From Prorocentrum cordatum (taxonomy: Eukaryota), in assembly GCA_963575745.1 (NCBI GenBank), contig CAUYUJ010000017.1:1-64000 (forward strand): 64,000 nt of DNA, read 5' to 3'. Made by a program: the position numbers and the translations under genes. Position 1 is the stretch's first letter; every line of letters begins with the position of its first letter. Below, one piece after another: positions 11,301 through 64,000 of this stretch. The notes under the pieces are model-generated. The model did not search any database. It was given only the letters and a program-made list of their open reading frames with translations, and was not told where the DNA came from.

Positions 11301-11451
11301 CGTCCGACCCGAGCATATAGTACACCCATCTTGTAGTACATCCTTCCTCGAGCGGTGTGGCCAGGAAGCGCCCGCCACGACGCATATGCCAGAAGATTTC
11401 TCGGTGCGCGCATCGCCCCTGGGGGGGCGATGCACACACAGTAGTAGTCTG

Positions 11452-15920: not shown

Positions 15921-15971
<51 letters not shown>

Positions 15972-18900: not shown

Positions 18901-20839
18901 GCAACCCGGGAACCTAGCCGGCCATCCAAATCGGCCCGGGACTTTCGCCAAGTCTTTCAATATCCGCTAGGACCCCTTCAGTGCAAGCACTGATTCGGGA
19001 ATCTGCATGTCCGCTCGGGCTCCGCGGGGCGCCCATGCCCACCCAAACAGAGGACGGGCTGCCGGGGCTGCGATGGCATGGCCGGGTGGGGATGGGGGCG
19101 TGTTGGACCGTGCCGACGGCCTGCTTGTCGGGGGGGGACTCCTCCTCCCCCCGCGCCAGCGTGCGGGCCCTCTGCACCGACGCGTCCGACAGGCTGCCCG
19201 GCGTGCGCCCGTCCTCGCCCGCCTCGCCCGCGGGCGCGCCGGCCCTCTCCTCCGCGGGGGGCCGGCTGCCGGCGGGGGCGAGGCCCACGCTGATGCCGCG
19301 GCCCTCCTCGTCGTCTCCGACCTCGCCCTCGCGGCCGGGCGCGTGGCCCTGCGGGGCGGCGGGGCCGGCGCCCGGGGCCTGGTCCGCCCCCTCGCCCTGC
19401 TGCGCGGCGGCGGCGGGGCGCGAGGCCAGCTCCGTGCCCAGCTGCTGGTAGAGCCTGCGGAAGCACCCGAACGCCTCGTACACCATCCGCAGGCTCGAGA
19501 CCTCGATCTCCTGGAGCTCCCCGTCCACGTACATCTTGACCTTCTCCTCCAGCTCCCTCACCTCGTCGGGGGTGTACTCCTCGTACTGCACCCGGGAGCG
19601 CCCAGCCAGGGTGTCGTGCATCGCGAGCTCCTGCTTGAGGTCCTTGATCTGGCGCTCGTACTTCCTGATCAGCAGCTGGGGGTCCAGGTGCACGTTGACG
19701 GAAGCCTCGTTGGACACCCGCATCATGCGGGTGGCGAAGCGGAGCGTGCTGGCGGTCTCCTGCAGCATCTTGGCCTCCGGCCAGACGTTGGCGATCATGG
19801 TCGTCTTGCAATTGCCGCCGAGCGAATCTTTCAGCAGGTGCGTCAGCTTCGACTGCCGATACGGCACGTGGTCGCGGTGCTTGTTGCCGAGCGCAACTAC
19901 GACCTGCTCCAGGAAAGTGAGTGACTTGTTGATGTGTGTCGCCTCCTGCAGGATCACGCCGTCCGAGCCCGTCTTCTTGACGCGCTCGCTGCCCGCGAGG
20001 TCCACGAGGTGCAGCTTCGAGTAGATCACCTTCTCGCTCGACTCCACGCGCGAGCGGCTCTCCACGTGGATGGTGAACACCACGTGGGAGCGCGTGGAGC
20101 CCTTGTTCAGGGCGTGCTCCGCCACGTGCCGGTTGGTGTCGCCCTGGAAGAAAACGTGGAGAGCCTCCTCCTCCGAGGCGGCGACGGGCGCCGAGAGGCC
20201 TCTGGCCTGGATGTTCCCGCGCGCATCCTCCACGATGGTGATGTCGCCGGACTGATCGGACACGGCCACGTCCCGCAGAAGGTCAAACATCAGCTCGTTG
20301 TAGATCTCCAGGTAGGAGAGCCGGACGGTGATGCTGCTCTCTGGCCTGGCCGCCGCCTCCGAGAAGACGAGCGAGATGGCACGAGGGACGATGCCGCGGT
20401 CCGCGAAGCCGACGTGGCCGCCGGTCATCGTGTGCGTCTTCCCGGCACCAGTCTGGCCGTAGGCAAGGATCGTGCCGTTGTAGCCCTCCATCACGGAGCG
20501 CACGACGTCCTGCGCGCAGCACTCGAAGACCTGCTCCTGGCTGGCGTTGGACAGGACCTTGTCGAGCTTGAAGTGCCAGGCCTCCTGCTGGTTGTTGACG
20601 TGCCCGGCGGTGTCGTCCTTGGGCAGCCGCATGTCGATGCTGTCGGAGGCCTCCGGGGGGGTCAAAAGAGCACCCATACTGCTACTCCGCCCGCCCCTCC
20701 AGGGGTGCGTTCTGGCCAGAATTTTGAGGCGTCAGCATCTTCCCCCCCCCCCCCGAGCCTCGCTGAACTCGAAGTTCTGGCTCGCGTAGCTCGCCGTTGG
20801 GCGAGCACGCACCACGACCCTCACGCTCGAGCGACCCAT
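14088..20839 (-). CDS. KIF9: Kinesin-9 family motor protein (KIF9-like), 6 exons: join 20839-20759, 20650-19121, 18640-18323, 15307-15179, 14768-14721, 14174-14088; 730 aa
   Basis: Contains P-loop GQTGAGKT, switch I NKGSTRSH, switch II LVDLAGSER, HINKSL and HVPYRQSKLT. The N-terminal VRVVVRARP...VNNQQEAWHFKLDKVL and tail motifs IDEEEY, FEEWY and AFHNAR resemble KIF9 as I recall it. All exons join in frame at AG acceptors and end in TGA at 14090-14088. Confidence 0.88.
14721..14768 (-). CDS. KIF9: KIF9-like exon 5 (EMFDRMEAGRIETQHP)
   Basis: In frame, GC3-rich, AAG acceptor and GA donor. Continues into the PDALAF tail motif. Confidence 0.75.
14838..16110. repeat. (TACA)n/(TGCA)n/(GACA)n microsatellites in kinesin introns 4 (14838-15082) and 3 (15690-16110)
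   Basis: Directly visible tetranucleotide repeats on either side of exon 4. Confidence 0.95.
15179..15307 (-). CDS. KIF9: KIF9-like exon 4 (VERSLQQCKARLVQAFEEWY...DKFDSQ)
   Basis: Resembles the KIF9/KIF6 tail motif QC+.RL...F+.WY. CAG acceptor and GA donor. Confidence 0.82.
16412..16637. mobile_element. Family C MITE with ~40-bp TIRs; copies about 9105-9253 (partial), 10510-10699, 13285-13503, 28581-28772, 58200-58381
   Basis: TIR GGCCTCC.AGATGGGGTCCGAG.AGATGGGGTCG.AGGATCGCG with internal GCATCGGCGAT repeats. Flanked by TAGA on both sides here and at 58200-58381. Confidence 0.8.
17302..17420 (+). repeat. Family F dispersed repeat; second copy about 51316-51472
   Basis: Shared GGCGGTGGA.AAACCTCCCTT.AGTAAACCTCCC.TTAGTGAAAACGG...GGACCCGCAAAAATGAC...TCAGGGTAGGAGGTCTG. 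Confidence 0.8.
18323..18640 (-). CDS. KIF9: KIF9-like exon 3, coiled-coil tail (AAFAGWKAHEG...TEVMQ)
   Basis: GC3-rich, contains the IDEEEY..IRSLKETKLQYR tail motif, 106 codons, CAG acceptor and GT donor. Confidence 0.88.
19121..20650 (-). CDS. KIF9: KIF9-like exon 2, motor domain, neck coil and linker (510 codons)
   Basis: Core of track ORF 18914..20677 with all kinesin motor motifs and strong GC3 bias. GAG|GCC acceptor and CAG|GC donor. Confidence 0.95.
20759..20839 (-). CDS. KIF9: KIF9-like exon 1 (MGRSSVRVVVRARPTASYASQNFEFSE)
   Basis: ATG at 20839. Encodes the kinesin beta-1 strand VRVVVRARP that the track ORF lacks. GAG|GC donor. Confidence 0.85.
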
Positions 20840-21289
20840 GCTGGCAGCCCAGACATCCGAAGATGCGCTCTTGTTTCCAACGCGCGGGCCCCAGACCCCT
20901 CATCCTGGTCCAGCTTCCCAGAGATCCGACGTCGTGATTTCCTCAATACGGGGTCCCCGGAAGTCTCGACCCATATCCCAAGACCGGTTTCTCATCCCGA
21001 GACGTTTTTTGACGGTCCTGGGGCCCGGCGAGGGCGTCTAGAGGCCGAACATCGAGAAAAAACGCCGTCTTGACTTTTTCAATGCGTTGGAGGTCTGGGT
21101 TTTATGGCCTCCGATCCGCTCCTGATGGCCCCGGAGCTCGAGAAAACGGCCCCTCGAGGGCGAGGGCCGAAGCCGAGGGAAAGGCGCTGGGACGGCAAGC
21201 TGCTGCGTTCCTGCTCGCTGTGCACGCGTCACGCGCGCGGAGCTCACACTGCCAATGCCGCGCTTCTTGCTGTGGCTTTGTGCCTCGGC

Positions 21290-21615
21290 CCACCATGGTA
21301 ATGGGTGCCTTTTTCACGCGTAGAGGTGGGGGAGGGGCGGGTGGGGCGCGAGACAAGGGCCTCCTCCGTGGGGGATGGGGGGCGAGACGGAGGGCGCCTC
21401 GGTCCACCATGGTCATGGGTCATGGGTGCCTTTTTCACGCGCAGGGATGGGGGAGGGGCGGGTGGGGCGCGAGACAAAGAGCGGCCTCCGTGGGGGATGG
21501 GGGGCGAGACGGGGGGTGTCTCGGCCCACCATGGTAATGGGTGCCTTTTTCACGCGTAGGGATGGGGAGAGGCGGGTGGGGCGCGAGACAAGGGCAGCCT
21601 CCGTGGGGGATGGGT
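21290..21615. repeat. ~118-bp tandem repeat, about 3 copies, upstream of the kinesin gene
   Basis: Units begin CCACCATGGT.ATGGGT at 21290, 21404 and 21526. Confidence 0.9.
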
Positions 21616-22591
21616 CGAGTGGGATTTCTGGCCCTGTCCAGCGGGGGGTTTCGCGCCACCTTCAGGGCTGATTCCAAGGCCGTCGCTGCTACCCTACAGC
21701 GTCACAACAGTACGAAGTCTCAGGTGCAACTGCTTGACATTACATGAAAAGGAGGAATCTCATCTAGGAGGGCGCCCCCAGCTCCCCCAGACCCGTGTTC
21801 CCCCAGAAATGGCTGGTCTGACAAGGGCAGCCTCCGTCGGGGAGGGGGGGCGAGACGGAGGGCCACACCGTCCGACGTCTGGGAGGGACGCCGCGCCAGC
21901 CGCAGCCCGCGGCCCCGAGGAGGGCACGGCCGTGCCCGCGCGCCGCCGGGCCCGCGCGCGGGGGGCCGCGCGCGGGCTGCGGGGCGCCCCGCGGGGGCCT
22001 CGAGAGGCTGTCGCGCGCGCCGCCCGGGGGGGGCCAGCCCTGACCTTCCAGAGAGCTATGTTTTAGCACTGGAGACCTAAAAACCTAAAAAGCTGAGCGA
22101 AACAGCCTAAACCAAGACGTAGGATAGCTGTGGGACAGGTTTTTAAGTCGGGTGCTATCTTTTAGCCCTCCTGGAAGGTCAGGGCAGGCCGGGAGGGGCG
22201 CCGGCTGCGCGGGGGGGCAGACCCAGACCTGATCGCGTCGTTGAAACATCAGGACGCGGTAGGTTGTTGCCAGTGTTCGGCTTTCGGGGAGCCCTCGCCG
22301 GGCCTCGGAAGCGTCAAAAACGGCCCAGGACGGAGAACCGGTCCCTGGGAAAGGGTCGGGGCTTCCAGGGACCCCGTTCTGACAAAATCAGGGCGTCGCA
22401 GGTCTGGGGAGGCAGGGTGCGGAAGGAGAACCCCTTCCGGTCTTGCTTTCCGCGACCTTTCCTTGTCCCTTCTGGCGGGGAGAGTCTTAAGGACTACGCC
22501 ATGTTTCGCAGGCCCCTCGACTCGTACACCTGCGTGCCGAGGTGTTCGAGCCACCACCACCTCAAACTTCCTGTCCGCGGTTTGGGTGGAT

Positions 22592-22823
22592 TGAGCGAGG
22601 ACCGACCGTCCCGGCGTTCTTATAGTCCTACCACGAAATATTCTTAGAACCCAAAAATGTTCAAATAACAAAAACAATGTTCTTAGAGCATCACCCCGAT
22701 GCGACAAAACAAGACAGACTCCTCTAGAAGTGTTCTGAGAACATGTCGTGAAAACCACAGAAGGTTCTTAGAACATTGTTTGGTGGGGCTGTAGGCGAGC
22801 CAGGACGCTTCGCCACTGCTTGA
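22592..22823. mobile_element. Family E ~230-bp dispersed element; copies 28927-29158 and 50095-50329
   Basis: Three near-identical copies GGACCGACCGTCCCGGC...TGTTCTTAGAAC...GGACGCTTCGCCACTGC, each bounded by YTGA on both sides. Confidence 0.8.
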
Positions 22824-25800
22824 GTGGAGACGAGAGTAATGAGGTGGGGGGAAGGGAGGACCGACAGCAGGAGCAGGTCACTGGGAGAGAGAGAGAGAGA
22901 GGGTAGCAAGCACGAAGCTATCCTTCGCAGGAGAAGGTGCGTAGCGAGGCAGGAGTGGCCGGCATCGGACCGATACTCTGGATCGGACAGGGGCGTGCAT
23001 CACAAATGGCCGCACTGGCATGGCACGGAGTCGGAATAGCATCGAAGCGGCTGCGCCATGATGCACAGCAACGCCATGCAAACATCGGCCCGCATCACAT
23101 CGCCGGAACATTGTAAGCGACTCGGATCGAGCCGGTCGAAATCGATATCGGATCAGATCGATCGAATGTGATCATAGATGGGGAGGGAGATCTGATGAAG
23201 AGGCGCCGGCAAGAGGAGGGGGTCACGAAGAGGCAGAGAACTACCGTCAAGCAAAAAACTATCGGTCGCAAGGCCCCCTGCTGCCGCGAGTCAACAGAGC
23301 CTTTGCCCTAGGCAGGAGGGAGGAGGAGGGCGGCGCTCCTGGGCTCGTCGCCTCCCTCGGTGGACACACCACGCGTGGGCTCCTCGTCGTTCTCCTCGAT
23401 CTTCGATCCTCGATCCCCTGCGCACCCCTTCTGCCCTCCCAAGCGTTTCCTCTGGTGAAGGCCGCTTCGCTCCCTCCAGGACTCCCCGTGCAGCCGCCAG
23501 GCCTGTGCAGCATGCAGAAAACTAGGACCTGTCGACCCCCTGCCGTCCTTATGGGTTCTGGAGGTTGGCGTCCCCGCCCCACTCCCAACACGTTGTGTTG
23601 CTTCCCGTCCCGTTCCTCCTCCTCCTCCTCCTCCACCTCCTCCTCCTACTCCTCCTCCTCCCCCTCCTCCTCCTCCTCCTCCTCCTCCTCCTCCTCCTCC
23701 TCCTCCTCCTCCTCCTCGTCCTCCTCCTCCTCCCTCCTCCACGTCCCTCGATATAATCCTAAAGCATTGTCCTCCTTATCCACCGTCCACATCCTCCCTC
23801 CGAAAACCACCCACAAGCATCTTTCTCCTTCGCCTCGTCCTCCTCTTCCTCCTCTTCATCCCGGATTCATCCCTCCGCCTCCTCCTCCTCCTCCCTCCTC
23901 CTTCTCCTCCTCCCTCTCCTTCCCTCCTCCTCCTCCTCCTCCGCCCTTATCCCTACTCCCCCCTCGCTTCTCCCGCCCCTATCCTTTTCATCCTCCTCCT
24001 TCCTCCCTCGTCGTCGTCCTCGTCATCGTCCTCATCCTCGAACTCTTCCTCTTCCTCCTTTTCCTCCTCCTCCTCCTCCTCCTCCTCCTCCTCCTCTCAC
24101 CTGACTCCTCCCTCCTCCCTCCTCCCGCCCTCAGGGAGGGTACCTCGGCACTTGGGCGGGGCGTCGGGATTACTGGGAGAACTGAATTCCGCCAAGCCGC
24201 TGTCTTCGTGGGGGCTGCGCTGCGGTAAGAATGTCTGATGCCCCGCGGTCCTTGGACCGCAACCCCTGGGCTTGTCGCTGGATGGTGCAGTGCGGTCCTC
24301 GGGATCTGCTCCTTCTCCGCCGTGCAGCCCCACTGTGGGCGCACCCCGGTTGTGTCCCACCGGGTCGAAAGGGTGTGGGCCAGGGTCGCTCCGACCTGCT
24401 GACTGGGCGGGGGGGGAGGCTCTGGGGTGCGGGCCGCCTGCCTACGGGCTGTGGGGGCGGTGCTGGGCCCCGCGCTGAGCCGCGCACCGCGCTCCCCGCG
24501 CGGTGGACGAGGGGGTGCCAGGGCCCCCGACCTCAGAACGGCGGGGAGGCTCGGGGCGGCGCGCGCGGCGTCGCCATCACAGTGATCGGAGGGCTGCGTG
24601 CCGCCGCTGGTGACTCCACCGCTCTCGGCAGTCGTGAGCGCTCTCTCTCGGCGCCGCGGGACTCTCTCAGAGCAGGTCATCCTTGTCACAGCTCTCCCAT
24701 AACCCAGGCGCCCTGGCCTGTCCCAGGCTCCCTGCCCAGGCATCGTCTCTGTGGATACTTCCATGCTCGGTGCTAATTACGCTTCACAGTCTTGCTCACC
24801 ACCGGCTCAGCGCCGTTGAGTGAAACCTGCTCGACGGAGCACAGCGTCCGCACTCATGCCAGCGTCCCACCACCTTCCTCCTCCCTCCTCCCTCCTTGTC
24901 CTCACGACACTGCCATCGTCCGCCGCCGCCTCGTCCTCCCCCCTCCCCCCTGCCCACTCTCCAAGCCCCTGCCCCACGGGGAGGGCGGGCCTCCCGGCTG
25001 GGGCGCTCGGCGCAGTCGCCCTCCATCAGCTTGGGCCAAAAAGTGTAGGCTGCACGGCGGGCGCCAGACTTCGGAGCGCTCTCATGCTACGACGAAGCCA
25101 TCAGCGAGACAGCATTGGACCGGGGCCAATCGGGGGTCCGTGAAATCTGGCGGCTGTGGAAGATGCATCGGGCTCTGCGGTCTCTCCTACCCGCTCCAGA
25201 AGCGCCATGAGAGCGTCGCGGGACGCCCTGAGGCGCCTCGTCCCGGCCCTAGCACTGCCCGACACGCGCCCCTCCCGCCGTGCATCTTGCTGGGATCCTC
25301 CTGCGGGATCGAGGGTCTGTGGAAAGAGGCTGCTGGGCGCTCTTGATGCTGTCTGCGCTTGCCCCTGGGAGCACACACTAGCTAAGGATGCAGATCGTGA
25401 TGAGGAAGGGGAGGTGTGCAGGAGGGAAGAGCGGAGGAGGCGACAGACGACTCCTCCGCCTCGTCCTCCGCCTCGTCCTTCGCTTCTCGTTTTCCGCCTC
25501 CACCACCGCTTCCTCCCTTCGCCTTCTCATCGAGACAGCAACAGCTGTGCGCCTGGCAGCGGCCAGAGATGGCAGTTGCGAGGGTCGTTCGAAGGGGCCC
25601 TGGGACAGAAGTAAATACACACAAATAACAGGATTCCAAATATTTTCAAATCATTTCTAGGTTTTTGTTTCCCCCCCACTTCCCATATTTTTCCACATTT
25701 TCTTGGGAATCGACGATTAATTGTGTCTGTGTGTTTTTGTTCCCTCCTGGTCATTGCTTGATAGGCGCAAGACACCATTTCGCTGGACCCCCTGCGGGTG

Positions 25801-30224: not shown

Positions 30225-30312
30225 TCACCACCATCACCATCACCATCACCATCACCATCACCATCACCATCACCATCACCATCACCATCACCATCACCAT
30301 CACCACCATCAC

Positions 30313-30347
<35 letters not shown>

Positions 30348-30435
30348 CCATCATCATCAAACTCATCATCATAATCATCATCAGCAGCATCATCAGCATC
30401 AGCATCAGCATCATCATCACCATCACCAACATAAG

Positions 30436-30467
<32 letters not shown>

Positions 30468-31360
30468 ACATCAGCATCATCATCGTCATCAACATCATCA
30501 ACATCAGCGACAGCATCATCATCGCCATCACCGTCATCATCATCAGCAGCGACACCATTATTATCATCATCGTCGTCGTCAGCATCATCATCAGCAGCAT
30601 GACCATCACCACCATCATCATCGTGATTATCATTGTCGCCATCATCAGCATCAGCAACATCACCAATAATAGCAACACCATCATCAGCAGCATCGGCATC
30701 ATCATCACAACCACGACTAGCATCATCTGTATCATCATGTTCATCACCACCACCAGCACCATAAACATCCTAACTTCCACCATCAACATCATTACCGTCA
30801 TCACCACCATCACCACCACCATCGTAATCATCATCATCACTAGCATCATGAAACTCATCATCATAATCATCGTCATCATCCTCATGATCATCATTATGCG
30901 CAGCATCATCGGCATCATCGTGATATTCAGCACCACCCAAATCACCGCCATCATCATCATCATCATCAGCATCATCATCATCATCATCAGCGGTAGCAGC
31001 AACAGACACATCATCATCAGCATCATCAGCATCGTCTTCACCATCGCCATCACCACGACGCTCTTCCTCACCATCACCATCATCAAAATCATCTTCGTCA
31101 TCACCGTCACCATCCCCCCATTAAATATCACCATCACCATCATCATCACCACCATCAGCATCTTGATCATCACCATCACCAACACCATCACCATCGTCAT
31201 GACCATCACCAGCATCATTACCATCACAAGCATAACCTTCATCATCATCACCAGCAGCACAACCACCATCGTCACCATCAGCATCACCATCAACATCGTC
31301 GTCACCATCGTCACCATCAACATCAACATCAGCAGCAACATCACCACCGCCATCATCACC
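30225..31360. repeat. ~1.1-kb degenerate (CAT/CAC/CAG)n trinucleotide repeat
   Basis: Directly visible. Produces spurious poly-Ile, poly-His and poly-Met ORFs. Confidence 0.95.
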
Positions 31361-31379
31361 AACGGCACACACCGTCATC

Positions 31380-33320
31380 CTCTTGTTCTCCTGCTCCTCC
31401 TCTTGTTCTCCCCCTCCTCCTCTTCTTCCTTTTCAGGAGGAGAGGGGAATGAGGGGACGACCAAGACCAGGAGGATACCGAGGAGGAGGAGGAGGAGGAG
31501 GAGGAGGAGGAGGAGGAGGAGGAGGAGGCCGAGGGGGAGGAGGCCGAGGAAGAAAGGAGGAGGGAAATAATGACGAGGAGCCAACGAGGAGAAGGAGGGG
31601 GGGAGGAGGAGGAGGAGGAGGAGGAGGAGGAGGAGGGGAGGAGGAGGAGGAGGAGGAGGAGGAGGAGGAGGAGGGAGGAGGAGAAGGGAGGAGGAGGATG
31701 AGGAGGAGGAAGAGAGGAGGAGGAGGGAGGAGGAGCAGGAGGAAGGAGGAGGAGGAGGAGGAGCAGGAGGAGGAGAAGGGAGGAGGAGGAGGAGGAGGAG
31801 GAGGAGAGGAAGAGGAAGAGGAGGAGGGAGGAGGAGGCCGAGGAGGAGCGGAGGAGAGGAAGGAGGAGGAGGAGGAGGAGGCGGAGGCGGGGAAGGAGGA
31901 GGAGGAGGAGGACGAGGAGCAGGGGCGGGCGCGCTCGCGCGGTCGCGCGGATCGCGGGCGGTCCCTCGCGCCGGGTAGTTGCAGACCTCGGCGGGCGCTC
32001 GGCATGCCGTGCAGGGGGGGGGGGGGGGGGGGGCGGCTGCCCGCGGGCAGCACGCAGGCAGGCAGGAGGAGCAAAGGAGGAGGAGAGGAGGAGGAGGAGG
32101 AGGAGGAGGAGGAGGAGGAGGTGGAGGATGCCGAGGAGGAGGAGAAGGAGGACAGAGGGAGGAAAGGAACACAGTGCGAAGAAGATTGAGGAGGAAACCA
32201 GGAGGAGGAGGAGGAGGAGAAGGAGGAGGAGAAGGAGGAGGAAGAGGACGAGGATAACACAATGAGGAAGGGGAGGATGAGGAGGAGAACGAAAGGCGCA
32301 GTACGACGATGCCGCTGGAGAGGCTTCGTGGCCAATTGGAGCGTTCTCTGGGCGTCGTGGAAGATCGTTACATGTTAGGCCATATCGCACGGTCTTGTGT
32401 CATCTTGAGGTGTATTGCTGGACTTCTGAGGCTACACTGGGGCCATGTCGGGGTTCTGACCGCTCGCGGGACGCGGGACGCCCCTTTAATACCCAGGGAA
32501 GGGGGTGGGAATCCATCCCCGGCTGGGAAGAAGGGGGTTGGAGAGGACGCGCCGTGAGCGACCGCCATCAGGGCTGGTGGAATGTAGGACGGTCCCTGGG
32601 TCCGAACTTCGGCCCTGGAAGCCCTGCTGCGGCGGTGCGAGTAGGCGCGAGGGCCTACTCGGCGCCGCCGCAGCCGTCACCCGGGCCGCCTTCGTCGTCC
32701 TTCTCTTCCCTGTCCTCCTCATCGTCCTCCTCCTCCTCCTTCTCCTCCACCTCCTCCCCCATGGCCTTCCGCCTCCTCGTCCTCGTCCTTGGCCTCCTCC
32801 TCCTCCTCCTCCTCCTCCTCCTCCTCCTCGTCAACTTCCTCTTCATCGTCCTCCTTCCCCTGCTTCTCCTCCTCCTCCTCCTCCTTCTCCTGCTCCTCCT
32901 CGGCATCCTCCTCCTCCTCCTCCTCCTCCTCCTCCTCCTCCATCCATCTCCCCCCTCCTCCTCGCCCTCGACGCGGCCTCATCCGCGTCCTCCTCCTTCT
33001 CCTCCTCCTCGTTGGCCACTCCTTCTCCCTCTGAAACGGCCCTCGGCTTTACCCTCCTCCGCCTCCTCATCCTCCTCCTCGTCGTGGTCGCCCGCGGCAT
33101 CCTCGTTCACATGATCCTCCTCGTCATCTTTCTCCCCTCCTCCTCCTCCTCCTCTCTCCTCCTCCTCCTCCCCATCCTCCTCGTCCTCCTCTCCTTCCTC
33201 CTCCTCCTCCTTCCTCCTCCTCCTCCTCCTCCTCATCCTCCCTCCTACCTCCTCCTCCTCCTCCTCCTCCGCCTCCTCCTCCCCTCCTCCTCCTCCTCCT
33301 CCTCCTCCTCCTCCTCTATA
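31380..33320. repeat. Long GGA-rich (31480-32290) and CCT-rich (32690-33320) low-complexity tracts in opposite orientation
   Basis: Directly visible. Confidence 0.9.
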
Positions 33321-47610: not shown

Positions 47611-49203
47611 AGCGCAGTTGCCAGCGGCGACGGCGGCGACGGTCTGGCGGGCTAGACTGCCGGGGGCGACGGCGGCGGCGACGGCGGCGGCGGGCCGGCA
47701 GGCCAAAAGTTGCCAGCGTTGACGGCGGTGGCGGCGGGCGGCGACGAGCTGGCGGGACCGCTGCTCGGGCTCAGTTACCTTAGAAACCGAATAAGAAACC
47801 TGGTCATCCTCCTCCTCCTCCTCCTCCTGCTCCTTCTCCTCCTCTCCTCCTCCTCGTCCTCGTCCTCCTCCTCCTCCTCGTCCTCGTCCTCCTCCTCCTC
47901 CCCCTCCTCCTCCTCCTCCTCCTCCTCCTCCTCCTCCCTCCTCCTCCTCCTCCTCCTCCTCCTCCGCCTCCTCCTCCTCCTCCTCCTCCTCCTCCTCCTC
48001 CTCCTCCTCCTCCTCCTCCTCCTCCTCCTCCTCCTCCTCCTCCTCCTCCTCCTCCTCCTCCTCCTCCTCCTCCTCCTCCCTCCTCCTTCCTCCTCCTCCT
48101 CCTCCCTCCTCCTCCTCCTCCTCCTCCTCCTCCTCCTCCTCCTCCTCCTCCTCCTCCTCCTCCTCCTCCTCCTCCTCATCCTCCTCCTCCTCCTCCTCCT
48201 CCTCCTCCTCCTCCTCCTCCTCCTCCTCCTCCTCTCCTCCTCCTCCTCCTCCTCCTCCTCCTCCTCCTCCTCCTCCCCCTCCTAGCCCCTTCGATCAGGG
48301 TCGGCGGCACCGGCCGTCAAGGCTCTCCAATAAGAAACCCCAAGTTCAAACACTGTTTGGGTTCTGGATGATCTAAATATGTGTATGTGTGTGCGTATGG
48401 ATATATCAGGTTGCTGCGAGGTCCCATTCTGAATTTCCAAACAGACCTACCCCCCAAATCGCAAATTCAGTAGGGGGGTCCCGCGTGACTCTCGGAGCGC
48501 ACCACATGACTTTTCCAGAATCCAGCAAGAATGTTGTCATTGCCTTCGGCAACAGAGGCAGGAGCACGAACTGCTCCTACGAGCAACCTTGTGCCAAGAT
48601 GGTCCCCGAGACCGGCAAGCGGCCCATAGGGACGCCCGAAAGGCGTCCAAGAGGCCTCTAAGAGGCGCCCAAATGGGCCTTCGAGAGGCCCCCTAAGAGG
48701 CCCCAGCTAGCCGTTTCCAGGCCCCTCAGATGCACCCCGAGAGGCCCCAGTATGCATCCAACAACACCTCGACCCAGAACTCAGGCACGGTGGCGGGTGT
48801 GCCGAAGGCCACCAGACCTGAGGGTCGACGCAGCACATGACAGCACGGCGAGTCTTGCTGTGGAGATACGCATGCAGCGCGGCGAGCTCGGCGAGAGGTT
48901 CGTGCAAAGACAGAGGCCGTGCTTGCAAGGGCGTCGAGGGCCTTCGTGAGCTGGTTCACGTTCACCAGCTCTGATCTGAGATTGACGCCACAGGACAAGA
49001 GGCCAATGTCGCCCAACTGCGCGCGGCCGCCGTCTCGTCCCGCAAGGGGCAGTGAGGATGAGATGGAGGGGGGGAGGTGGAGGAGGGAAGGGACAGAGGG
49101 AGAATGGAGGAACGCAAGCCCAATGAACTCCGTCGAGGAAGAGGTGGAAGCACGAGTTGAAGAGGGAAAGCGGGGAAGCCCCTCAGCCAACGGTCTCTGA
49201 AAG

Positions 49204-49665
49204 TTATCCTGGCGAGGGGCCCAACCATATGCAAGTGTGAATACCGCAAGGCGAGTGGGACGAAGGGTGGGCCCTCTGTGGGGCCATGAATCGTGTGAGG
49301 GGTATGCCGAAGTGGGCGGGGGAACGCATGCGAACTCCGCCGCAGGAGCCTTCGGAGGAGCTCCCCGATGGGGCCACGAAACGTGTGAGAGGTGTGCAAA
49401 ATGGGCGGGGGGACGCATGCGAACCCTGCCTCAGGCGCATTCGGTGCTCCCCCTGGGGCCACGAAACGTCTGAGGGAGGTGCCGAAGTGGGCGGGGGCAC
49501 GCATGCGAATCCTGCCACAGGAGCCTTTGGTGGAGCTCCCCCTGGGGCCACGAAACGTGTGAAGGTTGTGTCGAGATTGGAGGAGGGAGGGGGAAAAAGA
49601 GGGAGTGACGCGGGCGCTCTCTCTTCAAAACGAGGACCCAGCACCGCAGGGCGGCTGGGAACAAT
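49204..49665 (+). repeat. Family M element carrying an ~88-bp minisatellite; related pieces 59133-59265 and 63868-64000
   Basis: Units begin GGGGCCACGAAACG at 49280, 49370, 49455 and 49544. Shares its left end TTATCCTGGCGA.GG.CCCAACCATATGCA with 59133. Confidence 0.8.
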
Positions 49666-57100: not shown

Positions 57101-59929
57101 GTCCTTCTTGAAGCGCTCTTGTGCTGTCTTGGGTCTTTCTTCGGCCTCTCTGATCACCGCTCTGATCGCTTGGGGCCTGCTGGCAGGACCCTGCTAAGCG
57201 CCCTGGGGGGTCCAGGACGAGCCGGGGGACCTGTGGAAAGGATGTCCAGGGGGCCCAGAAACCCGCGATCCTAGGGGTCCAGTTGGGAGGGGGGGGGGCC
57301 CTCACCCTCCCCGGCTTGCAAACATATAAGAAGAGGAAGGGATACAGGTTATACCCACGGGTACGCATACGTGAGAGAGCTATAGAGAGACAGAGGGAGG
57401 GATGTGTATCGAACTACCAAACGAGTCGTTGCTACCTCCCGTCTGGCATACCCCCTTCTTCACTCGAGTCTCCATGAGCTTCCTCTCGCCCCAACATCAG
57501 ATGGGCGATGCGGACGTCTTTCTGCGTGCACGCCCTCCACCAAGCGACGGGATCGCACAGATACCACGAGCGCTACGGCGCCGGCTGGCAACGATCGCTC
57601 GAACCCAAGAGCAACCGCCCCGCGACGACACGGAACACATCCTGCCCCGCCCCCTCCACAAGTTGGGCGCCCTGTTCTTCCGATAGACCAGGAGCTCGAC
57701 CCCGTGCCCCTGCCGCAGCCGCGCTCTTGTGCGGCCCACCGGCGCAGAAAATGCGAAGGGGGCAACGAGGATGCCGAATGGCGTCCGCCCGTCGAAGGGC
57801 CTGCTCCTGCTGGGGCAAGAGAGGCTCCCTGGGGCACAAGCAAGGAGCAGGGGCAAGGCGAGCAGGGATGCGGAAACTCAGTGGCGATGTGTTCGAGCGA
57901 CCACGGCGTGCCAGATTTTGGGGGGCCCACGCCACGAACAAGTCGTGCCGTCGAAGGTCAGAGCGAGCAGACGTGAAGACCAGGAACGACTGCCGACGAC
58001 GCGCGCCCGACTCGGTGGCTGCTCCACGTTCGGCATGCGAATACCCAAGCGGAAGGACGAGCCCCCCCTCGCCCCGAGACCCTGAACGACACGGGCAGAG
58101 GGAAGGCACGGCCACGACACGGCACGGCGCAGCACCACCCAGCCGACCCCACGAGCTGGACGCACGACACGCCCACGTCTGGGCCGCCACGGGTTTAGAG
58201 GCCTCCCAGATGGGGTCCGATCAAATGGGATCGGATTGGCGAAGCATCGCCGATGCATCGGCGATGCGTCGGCGCCGTCGGCGTGGATAAAATCGGGCTC
58301 CACATCGAGCCACATCCCCGACGCACCGGCGATACGGCGCGATCCTGCGACCCCATCTGCTCGGATCCCGCCTGGGAAGCCTAGAACTTTACACACCGCA
58401 GTGTTGCGCCGCGAGGTGCTCCGCCAATGCCCACCCGCACCCCCTCGAACCACAGGTCCTTCCGCTCTGTCGCCCCGCGCCCGAGGCTACACGCTGGAGG
58501 CTGCGCTGCCACCCCGCCCGAGCAGCAGGGGCTGGCAACTCTCTGCGCCCTCCTCGCATGCTCTTCCGCCCCCTGGCGGCACTGGCTGCTCTGGAGAACG
58601 GGAATCGGCTACACTTTTTTGGTCTGCGGGGCGAGAGCGAACCTCTTCCGGTAAAAGCTAGGCGGGCTACGCACAGCTCTAATTGGGGAGACAGGGCACA
58701 GGCGGGCGGGGCCTCAGGCGGCCGGAGGGCGGGCCGGGGTGGGGAATCGGCTACACGTAGGGGTGACATGTGGCAAGAGAGTGAGCTTGAGTGCGTGGCT
58801 TTCGGGGGCAGCGGGGTGGCCAAGCAGAAGCGCGCAGGCCGAGTGCTGGGCGGACCCCTGCATCGGGGGGGGGGGCGGCAATGGGGGGTGGCCCGCAGGT
58901 GGGGTGAAGCACAGGGCCCTACAGGGGCCCCAGGACACACAAATAAATGCACACAAATAAAAATACTCGCCGTACTTAGTTTCTTACTTTTTTTCTGGGT
59001 TTCTGCCTTCCCCCCCACTTCCCATGTTTTCCTATATTTTCCTGGGGAATCGAGGATTCATTGTGTCTGTGTGTTTCTTTTCCTCCTGAAGGGGCCCTTT
59101 GGGGCCCCTTTTTGGGCACCAGCTGGCTCTAATTATCCTGGCGAAGGACCCAACCATATGCAGTTGTGAGTATCGCAATTGTGAATATCTTCTTCGGTGG
59201 CGCTCCCTATGGGGCCACGAACCGCATGAGGGGTGTGCCGAAATGTGGCGGGGCACACAACGCAAAGGAATACGATAGGTCTGATTACGAAAGAAAGAAC
59301 GCGGGTGAGTCAGAGCGCGAGGGAATCTGAGCATGAATGGGTCTGCGCGCGAATGAATATATTTGCATGAATGCGATCATGGAAACGCCTAGTGTAAGTG
59401 TATATGAATGTGAATGGTTCGAACATGCCTGTCCGAACACACGTGACACTGGGCGTGGCCGCCGCAGGCAGCTTCCGCGGGAACCCCGACGGCAGCGTCC
59501 GCACGTCGCGACGCCCATGTCGGCACGCCTCTTGCGAGGATCGCGCCCGCTTTCGGCTCTTCTTTTCCTTCCTCTTTGCCCGCGCACTCCAAAATCCAAG
59601 GCTGCGGGCGCGGCGCAGCGCGGAGTCCCCGCGACGCGCGCTGGTCGCCCCGGGCGGGGTCCCAGCGACGCGCGCGGGTCGTCCGCTGCGCGAAGCAGAG
59701 AGAGCTGACTAGCTAACTGGCTGGCTGATAGCGGGCAAGTCTCTGACCGCTGGGCAGAGCGACGACGGGCGAACGAGGCGCCGGGCCCCCCGCAGCACGG
59801 AGTTCCCGCGACGCGCGCTGGTCGCCCCGAGAGGGTCCCAGCGACGCGCGCGGGTCGTCCGCGGCGCGAGGCCAAACAATTAGTCGGGCAGTCGAGAGAA
59901 GGCGCAGCTCGGGGGAGACGCTCCTCAGG

Positions 59930-60172
59930 TCAGGCCTCGCGGATGAACTCGGTGAAGCCGAGCTCCCTGGCGAGGGCCGTCGCTTCCCTCCTGCACCGCT
60001 TCGTGCGCGCAGCAAACTGCTCCAGCTGCTTCCGCAAGCCCTGCGGCGGCCCTGCCATGAAGAACTCGATGCGCGGCGCCCGCATGAGCAGGAGGTCCTC
60101 GTGGCGCGTGGCGCGCGAGAGCAGCGCGTAGAGCTCCAGCCACCAGTCGTCGTCCTCCTTCTTGCCGTTCCC
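59930..60172 (-). CDS. Pif1-like helicase segment with motif VI (LYALLSRAT) and C-terminus
   Basis: Core of track ORF 59930..60202, strongly GC3-biased, ends at TGA. Confidence 0.72.
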   Translation of the reverse strand, partial: GNGKKEDDDWWLELYALLSRATRHEDLLLMRAPRIEFFMAGPPQGLRKQLEQFAARTKRCRREATALARELGFTEFIREA

Positions 60173-60174
60173 TA

Positions 60175-63100
60175 CAGAGCACTCATTTGTAATTCCGGTC
60201 ATTTGTAATTCCGGTCATTTCCAATTCCGGCCACGAATTGCAAATGAGAGGTGCCGACGGGAAGGCATGTGCTCAAGCGCTACGCCCAACGTGTCTCCAA
60301 GGCGTCAGGGCGCAGCCTCTGCTTACGCTCGTAAAAGATCACAAGAATAACGGCAACAGCAACGTCGCCGCCGTTCCGTGCGACACGCAGGATTTGCGTG
60401 TCACGTCTACGCGACACGCAAATTCTGCGCGTCGCGTCGCCCGGCCGCCCAGAGCGCGTTCCGGGTGACACGCAGGATTTGCGTGTCACTTTTAATTACT
60501 TACGCGACGCCGCCCCGAGCGCGTTCCGTGTGACGTGACACGCAGGATTGGCGTGTCGCGTAGACGTGACACGCAAATCCTGCGTGTCCGCCCCCCTGGC
60601 GTGGCCCGCGTGACCCGCAGATTCTGCGTGTCCCCACCCCGGCCCCCCCGACCCCCGGCGTGCGACGCACAGATTTTGGGCCCGCGAGACATGCAGATTC
60701 TGCGCGTCCCCACCCCGGCCCCCAGGACCCCTGGCGTGCGACACGCAGATTTTGAGCCCGCGTGACACGCAGATTTTTCGCGTCCCCATCCCGGCCCCCG
60801 GGACCCCTGGCGTGCGACACGCAGATTCTGCGTGTCCGCCCCCCCTGGCGGGGCCCGCGTGACACGCAGATTCTGCGTGCCCCCACCCCGGCCCCCAGGA
60901 CCCCTGGCGTGCGACACGCAGATTTTGAACCCGCGTCACACGCAGATTCTGCGTGTCCCCACCCCGGCCCCCAGGACCCTTGGCGTGCGACACGCAGGTT
61001 CTGCGTGTCCGCCCCCCCTGGCGGGGCCCGCGTGACACGCAGATTCTGCGTGCCCCCACCCCGGCCCCGGGGCCCCCGGCGTGCGACGCGCAGATTCTGG
61101 GCCCGCGTGACACGCAAATTCTGCGTGACCCCAACCCGGCCCCCAGCACCTTTGGCGTGCGATACGCAGATTCTGCGTGTCCGCCCCACTGGCGGGGCCC
61201 GCGTGACATGCAGATTCTGCGCGTCCCCACCCCAGCTCCCGGACCCCCGGTGTGCGACGCGCAGATTTTGGGCCCGCGTGACCGCCCCCCTGGCGGGCCC
61301 CGCGTGACACGCAGATTCTGCGTGTCCCCACCCCGGCCCCCGGGCCCCGGCGTGCGACACGCAGATTTTGGGCCCGCGTGACACGCAGATTCTGCGCGTC
61401 CCCACCACGGCCCCCAGGACCCCTGGCGTGCGACACGCAGATTCTGCGTGTCCGCCCCCCTGTGCGTCATGCAGACTTTGGGCCCGCATGACACGCAGAT
61501 TCTGCGTGTCCCCACCCCGGCCCCCACCCTTGGCGTGCGACACGCCTGCTTGGCTGTGCGTCACGACCCGCGTGACACGCAGATTCTGCGTGTCCCCACC
61601 CCGGCCCCCAGGACCCTTGGCGTGCGACACGCAGATTCTGCGTGTCCGCCACCCTTGGCGGGGCCCGCGTGACACGCAGATTCTGCGCGTCCCCACCCCG
61701 GCCCCCGGGCCCCCGGCGTGCGACACGCAGATTTTGGGCCCGCGTGACACGCAGATTCTGCGTGTCCCCACCCCGGCCCCCAGGACCCCCTGGACCCCCG
61801 GCGTGCGACGCGCAGATTTTGGGCCAGCGTGACGCGCAGATTCTGCGTGTCCCCACCCCAGCCCCCAGGACCCCCAGCGTGCGACACGCAGATTCTGCGC
61901 GTCCGCCTCCCAGCTGGCGGGGCCCGCGTGACACGCAGATTCTGCGTGTCCCCACCCCGGCCCCCGGGCTCCCGGCGTGCGACGCGCAGATTTTGGGCCC
62001 GCGTGACACGCAGATTCTGCGTGCCCCCACCCCGGCCCCCAGGACCCCCGGCGTGCGACACGCAGATTCTGCGTGTCCGCCCCCCTGGCGGGGCCCGCGT
62101 GACACGCAGATTCTGCGTGTCCCCACCCCGGCCCCCAGACCCCCGGCGTGCGACGCGCAGATTTTAGGCCCGCGTGACACGCAGATTCTGCATGTCCCCA
62201 TCCCGGCCCCCAGGACCCTTGGCGTGCGACACGCAGATTCTGCGTGTCCGCCCCCCTGGCGGGGCCCGCGTGACATGCAGATTCTGCGTGTCCCCACCCC
62301 GGCCCCCGGACCAAGGGGAGGCGAAAGGCAGATTCTGGGGCCCGTGTGACACGCAGATTCTGCGTGTCCCCCAGGACCCCCGGCGTGCGACACGCAGATT
62401 CTGCCTGTCCGCCCCCCTTGGTGGGGCCCGCGTGACACGCAGATTCTGCGTGTCCCCACCCTGGCCCCCGGGCCCCCGGCGTGCATCGCGCAGATTTTGG
62501 GCCCGCGTGACACGCAGATTCTGCATGTCCCCACCCCGGCCCCCAGCACCCTTGGCGTGCGACACGCAGATTCTGCATGTCCGCCCCGCTGGCGGGGCCC
62601 GCGTGACACGCAGATTCTGCGTGTCCCCACCCCGGCCCCCGGACCCCATTCTGCGCGTCCCCACCCCGGCCCCCAGGACCCCCGGCGTGCGACACGCAGA
62701 TTCTGCGTGTCCGCCCCCCTGGCGGGGCCCGCGTGACACGCAGATTCTGCGTGTCCCCACCCCGGGCCCCGGGCCCCCGGTGTGCGACGCGCAGATTTTG
62801 GCCCGCGTCACACGCAGATTCTGCGTGCCCCCACCTCGGCCCCCAGGACGCTTGGCGTGCGACACGCAGATTCTGCGTGCCCGCCCCCTCTGGCGAGGCC
62901 CGCGTGACACGCAGATTTCGCGTGTCCCCACCCCGGCCCCCCGACCCCCGGCGTGCGACACGCAGATTTGGGGCCCGCGTCACACGCAGATTTTGCGTGT
63001 CCCCACCTCGGCCCCCAGGACGCTTGGCGTGCGACACGCAGATTCTGCGTGCCCGCCCCACTGGCGGGGCCCGCGTGACACGCAGATTTCGCGTGTCCCC

Positions 63101-63625
63101 ACCCCGGCCCCCCGACCCCCGGCGTGCGACACGCAGATTTTGGGCCCGCGTCACACGCAGACTCTGCGTGTCCCCACCTCGGCCCCCAGGACGCTTGGCG
63201 TGCGACACGCAGATTCTGCGTGCCCGCCCCCCTGGCGGGGCCCGCGTGACACGCAGATTCTGCGTGTCCCCACCCCGGCCCCGCGACCCCCGGCGTGCGA
63301 CACGCAGATTCTGCGTGTCCGCCCCTCTGATTCTGCGTGTCCCGCCCAGGCGCGCTCCGTGTGACACGCAGATCTTGCGTGTCACGTGTACGCGACACGC
63401 AGGATTTGCGCGTCACGTCTACGCGTGCCCGATCGAGGGTGGCGCGCACCAGATCCAGACTCGGGCGCGCGCTCGAATGTGTTTGCCCTGGGGCCTCCGG
63501 GGCCTAACAAGCGCGTTCATTTCTAATTCCGGTCATTTGCAATTCCGGCCACGAATTAGAAATGAAGCGCGCCGAAGGGGCGGCGGAGGCCACGTGCAGC
63601 ACACGAATTAGAAATGAGCACTCTG
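60175..63625. mobile_element. Non-autonomous TIR DNA transposon, Tc1/mariner-like (TA target duplication, ~21-bp TIRs starting CAGAG)
   Basis: Left end TA|CAGAGCACTCATTTGTAATTC, right end GAATTAGAAATGAGCACTCTG|TA. Both ends share the subterminal TAATTCCGGTCATTT.CAATTCCGGCCACGAATT block. Precise removal restores the helicase frame. Confidence 0.8.
60380..63425. repeat. Higher-order tandem array of the 21-bp palindrome GACACGCAGATTCTGCGTGTC with a few recurring GC-rich linkers
   Basis: Dozens of full and half palindromes separated by recurring linkers such as CCCACCCCGGCCCCCAGGACCCCTGGCGTGC, CGCCCCCCTGGCGGGGCCCGCGT and TTTGGGCCCGCGT. Confidence 0.95.
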
Positions 63626-63657
63626 TACCTCGTGGCGGCCGCAATCCAGGATCACGC
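63626..63657 (-). CDS. Pif1-like helicase short segment (G)VILDCGRHEV
   Basis: cccag|GC acceptor. In frame with both neighbouring segments once the TA-flanked element is removed. Confidence 0.62.
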
Positions 63658-63803
63658 CTGGGCGACGTCGACCGAGGGAGCAGCGCGCCGGGCAGCCGAC
63701 GGCCCAGGGCGAGAGTCCACAGGACCGAGAGATGGTCTGGCCGCGGACTGCTCGCGCCCGGAGGTCTGGCCGCCCCCGGAGCGCCGTTTCTCCGCCCCGT
63801 CGC

Positions 63804-63861
63804 CTTCGCGCATGGTGCGCCCCTGGCACGCCACCGTGGTGATGACCCTGCCGTGCGAGAA
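63804..63861 (-). CDS. Pif1-like helicase segment with motif V (HGRVITTVACQGRTM); upstream boundary uncertain
   Basis: Lies in track ORF 63652..63990. GAAG|GC donor of a 146-nt intron (63803-63658). Upstream sequence is a minisatellite repeat. Confidence 0.62.
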
Positions 63862-64000
63862 ATGCAAGGGGGGTGCCGAAATGGGTGGGGGTGACGCATG
63901 CGGGCGGCGGGCACTGGGGCCTTCGGTGGAGCTCCCTATGGAGCCACGAAACGTGTGAGGGGTGTGCCGAAATGGGTGTGGGTGACGCATGCGGCCGCGG

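What the first reader, a model, noticed from the sequence alone, without database searches (positions are those of the whole stretch)
60173..63627. TA-targeting TIR element whose cargo is a ~3-kb ordered array of perfect palindromes
The ends are well defined (TA duplication, ~21-bp TIRs, in-frame empty site GAG GTA GGG). Each end has a further hairpin (CTCATTTGTAATTC..GAATTGCAAATGAG on the left, TTCATTTCTAATTC..GAATTAGAAATGAA on the right). The interior has no transposase, only dozens of GACACGCAGA-T-TCTGCGTGTC dyads and half-sites separated by a few recurring linkers in a higher-order pattern, with variant dyads at both array edges. It resembles a repeat-spacer array but spacers are not unique. 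It may be a mobile carrier of dimeric-protein binding sites or cruciforms, or a satellite being born inside a transposon (inference).
Basis: partly seen in the sequence, partly recalled or inferred. Interest (0 to 1): 0.7.

Follow-up and report, generated by a model that had tools for sequence, protein, structure and literature searches.

The report
Gene-less jumping element carrying a satellite
A 3.45-kb gene-less cut-and-paste transposon has landed inside one copy of a many-copy helicase gene of a GC-rich marine protist, and almost all of its interior is a tandem repeat grown from a short palindrome, which is a known way for satellite DNA to arise.

Summary
Window 60175-63625 is a 3451-bp insertion bounded by an 18/21 terminal inverted repeat and a duplicated TA. 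Contigs from three public runs join 60172 directly to 63626, which is the empty site, and a 96%-identical protein reads straight across the site. The host sequence is the last exon of a PIF1-like helicase family.

Each end carries four copies of a 16-bp repeat (TCATTTNNAATTCCGG), probably transposase-binding sites. No ORF in the element matches Pfam.

The interior is one same-orientation tandem array. It has about 16 units of a 171-bp higher-order repeat made of four sub-monomers, with older, diverged units at both edges. It holds 52 dyads, 45 of them in the array proper. Only 18 of those 45 are perfect.

Dyad columns vary as much as linker columns (4.9% vs 5.9%, p 0.43). All 34 changed arm positions break the pairing and none is compensated, so nothing shows selection for the palindromes.

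Best reading: a non-autonomous TA-duplicating (Tc1/mariner/pogo-type) element whose internal palindromic repeat expanded into a satellite-like array, as in DTC84 and Tetris. No autonomous partner was found and no whole genome was available. This is a new member of a known kind, of modest interest.

The parts
60173..60174 (.). Left copy of the duplicated TA target
   Evidence: Sequence. Empty-site contigs join 60172 to 63626 and skip 3453 bases, with 3 ambiguous letters.
60175..60195 (+). Left terminal inverted repeat (21 bp)
   Evidence: 2 matches in the window (this one and 63605-63625 on the other strand, 3 mismatches), 0.00 expected.
60183..60247 (+). Left cluster of the 16-bp repeat TCATTTNNAATTCCGG: three forward copies and one inverted copy, forming a hairpin. 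Presumed transposase-binding sites.
   Evidence: 8 matches with up to 3 mismatches, all at the two ends, 0.23 expected. TRF period 16. Fold.
60248..60358 (.). Unique left 'cassette' sequence between the end repeats and the repeat region
   Evidence: No repeat found here. Covered by independent contigs in runs X1 and X2 (records 4, 19, 20).
60359..60588 (+). Old, diverged repeat units at the left edge. They hold five variant dyads (centre GGATT or AATCC) arranged as a 207-nt palindrome (60382-60588).
   Evidence: Inverted repeat I1: 63-nt arms, 90% complementary. Dyad list. DNA fold -134 kcal/mol, z -10.8.
60589..63341 (+). Tandem array: about 16 units of a 171-bp higher-order repeat made of dyad+31, dyad+23, dyad+30 and half-site+14. 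It holds 45 dyads, all in one orientation.
   Evidence: TRF. Parse. Alignment of the 10 regular units out of 16 intervals. Identities 86-96%.
63342..63425 (+). Old, diverged repeat unit at the right edge (two variant dyads 10 bp apart)
   Evidence: (I7, I10). TRF period 31. The junction with the array is covered by contigs of X1, X2 and X8 (records 6, 21, 28).
63426..63516 (.). Unique right 'cassette' sequence
   Evidence: Contigs of X1 and X2 (records 6, 21).
63517..63565 (+). Right cluster of the 16-bp repeat (two forward copies and one inverted copy). It lies in the same orientation as the left cluster (85% identity over 66 bp), not mirrored.
   Evidence: (60196-60261 vs 63514-63579, direct).
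63605..63625 (-). Right terminal inverted repeat. It contains the fourth, terminal copy of the 16-bp repeat (63602-63617).
63626..63627 (.). Right copy of the duplicated TA
59933..60172 (-). Host sequence: the last 80 codons of a PIF1-like helicase gene, downstream of the insertion
   Evidence: 6 proteins with E from 2.9e-44 to 4.8e-23; P0006 carries PF05970. Sequences.
63626..63657 (-). Host sequence: the same helicase exon upstream of the insertion (GVILDCGRHEV), preceded by a putative 146-nt GC-AG intron at 63658-63803
   Evidence: P0004-P0006 run from CQGRTM..G straight into V(I/V)IDC with no inserted stretch there.

Best explanation
This is a non-autonomous cut-and-paste DNA transposon of the TA-duplicating kind (IS630/Tc1/mariner/pogo type). 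It inserted into the last exon of one copy of a very high-copy PIF1-like helicase family. I infer that a transposase encoded elsewhere binds the four 16-bp repeats at each end, cuts at the 21-bp inverted termini and integrates at TA. The element has no gene. Its whole interior descends from a short internal repeat unit containing a 21-bp palindrome. That unit multiplied head to tail by unequal exchange or replication slippage, plausibly helped by hairpin formation at the palindromes. The result is a 171-bp higher-order repeat of about 16 units with older units left at the two edges. The palindromes look perfect only because the array is fairly young or homogenised; they now decay like the linkers. 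Shown here: the ends, the TA duplication, the empty site, the lack of a recognisable gene, and the tandem higher-order structure with its neutral-looking variation. Inferred: the transposase family, binding to the 16-bp repeats, and the expansion mechanism.
For: Ends and target:
- The TIR agrees at 18 of 21 bases and occurs nowhere else in the window. TA lies on both sides.
- Contigs join 60172 to 63626 and skip 3453 bases: X1 2 contigs, X8 1 contig, X15 one 502-bp contig with 237 letters on its shorter side and 6 other letters.
- Protein P0001 (96% identical) reads ...GVILDCGRHEVGNGKKEDDD... across the site.
- The 16-bp repeat gives 8 matches, all in the two ends, against 0.23 expected.
- No Pfam family matched 8 element ORFs, and Rfam gave nothing in 58000-64000.

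Other copies (suggestive only):
- An X2 contig carries the left end from 60173, with 15 differences, behind 80 letters that do not fit this flank.
- An X15 contig carries the right end up to 63631 and then 169 unlike letters.
- Contigs of X1, X2 and X8 cover the junction between the array and the right cassette.

Array:
- TRF gives periods of 171-173.
- All 45 in-array dyads lie in one orientation.
- The 10 regular units are 86-96% alike, and the last three neighbours are 96% alike.
- The edge units are the most diverged.
- Dyad columns change at 4.9% and linker columns at 5.9%, p 0.43. There are 0 compensatory and 34 pair-breaking changes.

Precedents:
- Tandem-repeat-bearing MITEs with a palindrome in each repeat (DTC84, PMC3879986, abstract).
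- Tetris (PMC4079207, abstract).
- TA as the Tc1-mariner duplication, and three binding repeats per end in Bari (PMC4877112, passages).
Against: - No transposase gene with these ends was found: none in the window (Pfam on 43 ORFs of 150 aa or more from 41.5-64 kb) and none in the collections searched.
- No complete second copy was seen. The two contigs with other flanks could be rearranged or diverged versions of the same site.
- The element ends have a contig depth of only about 16-19 in X1, against 7-14 for the lowest variant-specific flank contigs. The family therefore looks low-copy, unlike a typical MITE. The tool warns that depth is no copy number.
- The clusters of end repeats lie in the same orientation at both ends rather than mirrored, which is unusual for this superfamily.
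- The array length rests on the assembly alone, because no laid contig spans it.
Confidence: 0.72

Rival explanations
1. The dyad array is a functional cargo: a mobile block of binding sites for a dimeric DNA-binding protein (a decoy or sponge, a partition or origin-like site), or a cruciform-forming block that the element spreads.
For: The motif is a 10-1-10 palindrome, present 52 times and found only inside the element. Seven variant dyads with conserved 8-bp arms also stand in the older edge units, where they build a 207-nt palindrome. Single strands fold far better than shuffles (z -7.0, -10.8 and -5.9). Contigs of three runs cover the right edge of the array, so the array is not private to this copy.
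Against: There is no sign of constraint. Dyad columns change as often as linker columns (31/629 vs 57/968, p 0.43). None of the 34 changed arm positions is compensated, and only 18 of 45 dyads are perfect. Centre-to-centre spacings of 52, 44/45 and 75 bp are simply those of the tandem unit. The dyad was not found as an array in viral or metagenome contigs; the single hit is inside a bacterial gene. No protein partner is known.
Confidence: 0.08
2. It is a Helitron2/Helentron-type non-autonomous rolling-circle element (HINE/DINE-1-like). Such elements often carry central tandem repeats, and earlier notes of this scan report them as abundant in this genome.
For: It has central tandem repeats, inverted repeats near the ends, hairpins near both ends and no gene. 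HINEs have central repeats, subterminal inverted repeats and a 3' palindrome (PMC4067079, passages). Scan notes e1-7625408 and e1-7694971 describe satellite-carrying Helitron2-like elements in the same genome; I did not check them.
Against: The inverted repeat reaches both termini, whereas in HINEs it lies 38-60 bp inside the 3' end. The target is CCC-TA-CCT, not T-rich. The filled site has two TAs where the empty site has one, whereas HINEs show no target modification and insert at TT.
Confidence: 0.06
3. The TIR insertion is real, but the 2.7-kb array is partly an assembly artefact: a shorter or longer repeat mis-sized by the assembler.
For: No laid contig spans the array. One X1 contig joins 60926 to 61276, skipping 349 bases or about two units. 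X1 and X2 differ from the window at the same six places in 63326-63481.
Against: The units are individually distinct (86-96% alike, with irregular units of 76-302 bp), which is not what collapse or artificial expansion produces. Array words are present in all 30 depth bins of X1. Both junctions between array and cassette are covered by independent contigs (records 5, 6, 21, 28).
Confidence: 0.1

Closest known systems
DTC84 and other tandem-repeat-containing MITEs of bivalves (Satovic and Plohl 2013, PMC3879986; abstract read)
   Same: A gene-less element with short inverted repeats in flanking 'cassette' sequences. [quoted passage not shown]
   Different: DTC84 has up to five core repeats, a microsatellite and a putative AA target. 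Here there are about 16 higher-order units (2.7 kb), no microsatellite, a proven TA duplication and terminal rather than subterminal inverted repeats. DTC84 is high-copy, while this family appears low-copy.
Tetris, a foldback-type element of Drosophila virilis (Dias et al. 2014, PMC4079207; abstract read)
   Same: A non-autonomous DNA transposon whose internal tandem repeats were the building blocks of kb-sized satellite-like arrays.
   Different: In Tetris the 220-bp repeats lie inside long inverted terminal arms (foldback structure). Here the array is a single same-orientation block between short 21-bp ends.
Tc1/mariner elements with several transposase-binding direct repeats per end, e.g. 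Bari (PMC4877112; passages read)
   Same: A TA duplication and short terminal inverted repeats, with several copies of a 16-18-nt repeat in each end. In Bari these repeats are reported to mediate the transposon-transposase interaction.
   Different: Bari has three repeats spread over about 250 nt and mirrored at the two ends, and it encodes a transposase. Here four abutting repeats form a hairpin, the clusters lie in the same orientation at both ends, and there is no gene.
HINE / DINE-1 non-autonomous Helentrons (Thomas et al. 2014, PMC4067079; passages read)
   Same: Non-coding elements with central tandem repeats, inverted repeats and end hairpins.
   Different: HINEs insert at TT or T-rich sites with no target duplication, and their inverted repeats are subterminal. 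This element duplicates TA and its inverted repeats are terminal.

Membership tests
IS630/Tc1/mariner/pogo (TA-duplicating cut-and-paste transposons), non-autonomous member | Duplication of a TA dinucleotide at the insertion site | tested here: met
   TA lies on both sides. Empty-site contigs in X1, X8 and X15 hold one TA. An uninterrupted protein reads across the site. ISL2EU, the other 2-bp group, duplicates AT within AATT (PMC4482050, passages), which does not fit CCC-TA-CCT.
IS630/Tc1/mariner/pogo (TA-duplicating cut-and-paste transposons), non-autonomous member | Terminal inverted repeats reaching the very ends | tested here: met
   18 of 21 bases agree, there are 2 matches in the window and 0.00 are expected.
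IS630/Tc1/mariner/pogo (TA-duplicating cut-and-paste transposons), non-autonomous member | An autonomous relative with the same ends that encodes a DD(E/D) transposase | tested here: inconclusive
   None was found in the window, in viral, metagenome or prokaryote contigs, or by look-alike search of earlier scan windows. The organism's genome is not held, so absence is not shown.
IS630/Tc1/mariner/pogo (TA-duplicating cut-and-paste transposons), non-autonomous member | Several copies at different sites, each with its own TA flanks | tested here: inconclusive
   One X2 contig has the left end behind an unlike flank and one X15 contig has the right end before an unlike flank, and both include the TA. 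No complete second copy was seen.
Helitron2/Helentron non-autonomous elements (HINE/DINE-1) | Insertion at TT or T-rich sites without target modification | tested here: not met
   The target is CCC-TA-CCT, and TA is present once in the empty site and twice in the filled site.
Helitron2/Helentron non-autonomous elements (HINE/DINE-1) | Subterminal inverted repeats (38-60 bp from the 3' end), followed by a short 3' palindrome | tested here: not met
   The inverted repeat ends exactly at 63625, the last base before the TA.
Foldback elements (Tetris-like) | Long inverted terminal arms built of tandem repeats | tested here: not met
   All 45 in-array dyads have the asymmetric centre in the same orientation. 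The array is one direct block.
Satellite DNA with higher-order repeats | Head-to-tail monomers organised in a higher-order unit, with neighbouring units most alike | tested here: met
   TRF periods of 171-173. 10 of 16 intervals measure 161-174 bp. Identities are 86-96%, and the last three units are 96% alike.
Satellite DNA with higher-order repeats | Long arrays, abundant in the genome outside the element | tested here: inconclusive
   Array depth in X1 (up to 282) is about what one array of some 16 units would give at the depth of the ends, about 18 (depth is a poor measure). No array was found in viral or metagenome contigs or among predicted proteins.
CRISPR-like repeat-spacer array | Unique spacers between identical repeats | tested here: not met
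   The linkers recur in a fixed order of 31, 23, 30 and 14 bp.

The most novel reading that the evidence does not exclude
The 21-bp dyad may be a real protein-binding or cruciform site that the element needs or exploits, for example an internal site for its transposase or a host factor. The seven dyads in the old edge units form a 207-nt palindrome that could reflect such a role. On this reading the 45-copy array is a mobile 'sponge' or architectural block that changes local chromatin or transposition control in an organism said to lack ordinary nucleosomes. The lack of constraint inside the array does not exclude a function that depends only on having many roughly intact sites.
Probability: 0.07. 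Interest if true: 0.65.

Novelty: new member of a known kind. Interest (0 to 1): 0.3.

Why it matters
It is a clean, well-bounded example of a satellite-like array growing inside a TA-duplicating DNA transposon. The insertion has a verified empty site, and the host lineage is a GC-rich marine protist that earlier notes of this scan call a dinoflagellate; I did not check that. Mobile elements of such lineages are little described. The case adds to the evidence that transposons seed tandem repeats and that palindromes at unit junctions accompany array growth. It does not open a new question: the phenomenon is already documented in bivalves and Drosophila, and nothing here shows that the palindromes have a function.

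Tried and rejected
- Public collections:
  - The double 16-bp repeat pattern gave 0 hits in viral contigs and 0 in metagenome contigs.
  - The dyad gave 0 hits in viral contigs. In metagenome contigs it gave 1 hit, a single site inside a bacterial coding region, read as chance.
  - The degenerate TIR pattern gave 4 single hits in viral contigs and 39 in prokaryote contigs, none paired, scattered over unrelated taxa. This is at about the level I estimate for chance.
- Array and right-end ORF (292 aa) against the 5.8-billion-protein set: no hit among proteins of 160-511 aa or 30-159 aa.
- Pfam on the two host-exon pieces: nothing meaningful. The helicase identity comes from relatives.
- Rfam on 58000-64000: 0 matches.
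- Sequencing runs: no RNA holder is listed. X15 is only guessed to be RNA, so nothing can be said about transcription.
- Look-alike search of earlier scan windows with the left end, the array and the right end: 0 windows. No link could therefore be made to the pogo-like or Rep-plus-mariner families noted in the same genome.
- CRISPR-like reading: rejected, because the linkers recur.
- Foldback reading: rejected, because the array has a single orientation.
- ISL2EU: rejected, because it duplicates AT within AATT.
- A literature search for dinoflagellate satellites or transposons with such arrays showed nothing relevant in its listing (listing only). The listing likewise named no dinoflagellate TA-type element.
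Full report
**1. What is there**

The stretch 60173-63627 reads TA, then a 3451-bp insert (60175-63625), then TA.
- The insert begins with CAGAGCACTCATTTGTAATTC. It ends with the inverted partner of that sequence, agreeing at 18 of 21 bases.
- These are the only two matches in the 64-kb window, and shuffles give none.
- Directly inside the ends lies a 16-bp repeat, TCATTTNNAATTCCGG. It gives 8 matches with up to 3 mismatches, all in the two ends, against 0.23 expected.
- The left end has three forward copies and one inverted copy (60183-60247).
- The right end has two forward copies and one inverted copy (63517-63565), plus one inverted copy inside the terminal repeat (63602-63617).
- The forward-forward-inverted cluster lies in the same orientation at both ends (60196-60261 vs 63514-63579, 85% over 66 bp).

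**2. The insertion is real and its borders are exact**

I laid the contigs of four public runs on 59800-63900.
- Contigs join 60172 directly to 63626, skipping 3453 bases with 3 ambiguous letters. That is the site with a single TA. They comprise two contigs in X1, one in X8, and one 502-bp contig in X15 with 237 letters on its shorter side and 6 differing letters in all.
- Many slightly different empty-site variants were also listed.
- The flanks have summed word depths of thousands to tens of thousands, while the element's ends have about 16-25. The host sequence is therefore a very high-copy family and the element is not.
- At the protein level the flank is the C-terminus of a PIF1-like helicase. 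The last 80 codons found 6 longer proteins (E from 2.9e-44 to 4.8e-23), one of them carrying PF05970.
- P0001, which is 96% identical, reads ...GVILDCGRHEVGNGKKEDDD... without a break across the insertion point.
- In the window the frame runs from ...CGRHEV into the element and stops after five more codons (QSAHF).
- ISL2EU, the other group with a 2-bp duplication, duplicates AT within AATT (PMC4482050, passages). That does not fit CCC-TA-CCT.

**3. Other copies**

- Independent contigs cover the left end in X1 (60174-60409, 3 differences).
- They also cover it in X2, in two variants with 15 and 9 differences.
- They cover the right end and the junction with the array in three runs: X1 63288-63585, X2 63303-63560 and X8 63285-63378.
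- One X2 contig has 80 letters before 60173 that do not fit this flank.
- One X15 contig continues after 63631 with 169 unlike letters.
- These contigs suggest further insertions elsewhere, each with the TA, but they are not proof, and I saw no complete second copy.
- X1 and X2 differ from the window at the same six positions in 63326-63481, so the window's copy is not the one in those runs, or it carries assembly errors.

**4. The interior**

No Pfam family matched 8 element ORFs, and Rfam found nothing in 58000-64000.

The dyads:
- The dyad GACACGCAGATTCTGCGTGTC gives 88 matches with up to 2 mismatches, counting both strands. All lie within 60382-63383 and none are expected by chance.
- 18 of these are exact.
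- My parse gives 52 dyads and 18 lone half-sites.

The repeat unit:
- Between 60589 and 63341 the order is fixed: dyad + 31-bp linker, dyad + 23-bp linker, dyad + 30-bp linker, half-site + 14-bp linker. This adds up to 171 bp.
- The half-site unit looks like a dyad unit with an internal deletion, because its linker equals the second half of the 23-bp linker.
- TRF reports periods of 171-173 with 87-93% matches.

Variation among units:
- Of 16 intervals between successive half-site anchors, 10 measure 161-174 bp and were aligned. The other 6 (76, 85, 100, 110, 256 and 302 bp) are deletion or duplication variants and were left out.
- The 10 aligned units are 86-96% alike, and the last three neighbours are 96% alike and share diagnostic changes.
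- All 45 in-array dyads have their asymmetric centre in the same orientation.

The edges:
- At the left edge (60359-60588) and the right edge (63342-63425) lie older units of the same kind. They have variant dyads (centre GGATT or AATCC) and 10-bp spacers.
- On the left they form a 207-nt palindrome with 63-nt arms that are 90% complementary. It folds at -134 kcal/mol with z -10.8.

Diverged units at the edges, homogenised units in the middle and most-similar neighbours are the usual picture of a tandem array evolving by unequal exchange. That statement rests on established knowledge of satellite DNA.

**5. Are the palindromes kept by selection?**

- In the 10 aligned units, dyad columns depart from the consensus in 31 of 629 cells (4.9%) and linker columns in 57 of 968 cells (5.9%). 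Fisher p is 0.43.
- Among the 45 in-array dyads, 18 pair at 10 of 10 arm positions, 20 at 9 and 7 at 8.
- All 34 changed arm positions break the pair, and none is compensated on the other arm.
- Single strands fold much better than shuffles (z -7.0 for one unit), but that follows from the palindromes themselves.

Nothing therefore indicates that the dyads are maintained. They are perfect where the array has been recently copied.

**6. Mechanism**

Most likely (0.72) this is a non-autonomous TA-duplicating transposon, mobilised in trans by a transposase that recognises the 16-bp repeats.
- Tc1-mariner elements such as Bari have three 18-nt binding repeats per end and a TA duplication (PMC4877112, passages).
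- Its internal palindromic repeat expanded in place.
- The closest described parallel is DTC84. It is a tandem-repeat-containing MITE with an ordered array of variants and a palindrome at each unit junction, which its authors propose as a hotspot of array-length change (PMC3879986, abstract).
- Tetris shows how such internal repeats seed kb-sized satellite arrays (PMC4079207, abstract).

**7. Rivals**

- A Helitron2/HINE-type element is a fair suspicion. Earlier notes of this scan report many satellite-carrying elements of that kind in this genome (I did not check them).
  - HINEs insert at TT or T-rich sites without target change and have subterminal repeats 38-60 bp from the 3' end (PMC4067079, passages).
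  - Both of those features were tested here and not met.
- A functional binding-site or cruciform cargo is not excluded, but it has no support (section 5).
- An assembly artefact in the array length cannot be excluded without long reads.
  - The units are individually distinct.
  - Both junctions between array and cassette are independently covered.

**8. What could not be done**

- No genome is held.
- Scans of viral, metagenome and prokaryote contigs with the end patterns and the dyad found nothing beyond chance.
- The array ORF found no predicted proteins.
- Look-alike searches of earlier scan windows found none.
- No link could therefore be made to the pogo-like or Rep-plus-mariner families that earlier notes report in this genome.
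- The organism's identity as a dinoflagellate comes only from those notes. In my own calls I saw only marine and estuary metagenome holders with small shares and one putative GC-AG intron.

**9. Verdict**

This is a new member of a known kind, a tandem-repeat-bearing non-autonomous TIR transposon, and its interest is modest (0.3).

Noticed in passing
window 59800-60172 and 63636-63900: The host sequence is part of a very high-copy family. Summed contig word depth is about 6,000-23,000 in X1 and 3,400-43,000 in X2, against about 20 for the element ends. Many sequence variants exist. Relatives are PIF1-like helicases of 600-680 aa (P0002, P0005, P0006), so the helicase is probably itself carried by a mobile element.
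   Followed up: partly
window 63658-63803 (- strand): A putative 146-nt intron with GC...AG borders splits the helicase between ...CQGRTMREG and VILDCGRHEV. Relatives P0004-P0006 have no extra residues there, whereas predicted proteins P0001-P0003 read through it.
   Followed up: partly
window 49279-49574, 59192-59245, 63867-64000: An 89-bp repeat (3.4 tandem copies at 49279-49574) recurs just upstream of the helicase exon and at 59192-59245, with 77-91% identity. It is an interspersed repeat of unknown kind.
   Followed up: no
window 59599-59696 and 59776-59872: Two 98-bp direct repeats (88% identical) lie just downstream of the helicase stop codon.
   Followed up: no
window 2054-48283 (many places): The window is studded with long trinucleotide arrays (GAG, TCC, CCT, CGT and others) of up to about 600 bp. 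Examples are 32713-33316, 23614-24125 and 47807-48283. There are also two (ACAT)n arrays at 14837-15082 and 15733-15988 and a 1.1-kb CATCAT array at 30232-31358. No Pfam family was found in the 43 ORFs scanned (41 of 150 aa or more, plus two of 115 and 130 aa at the window's end) between 41.5 and 64 kb.
   Followed up: partly
window 60926-61276: One X1 contig joins 60926 to 61276, skipping 349 bases or about two 171-bp units. This is either an array-length variant in another copy or strain, or a contig collapse.
   Followed up: no
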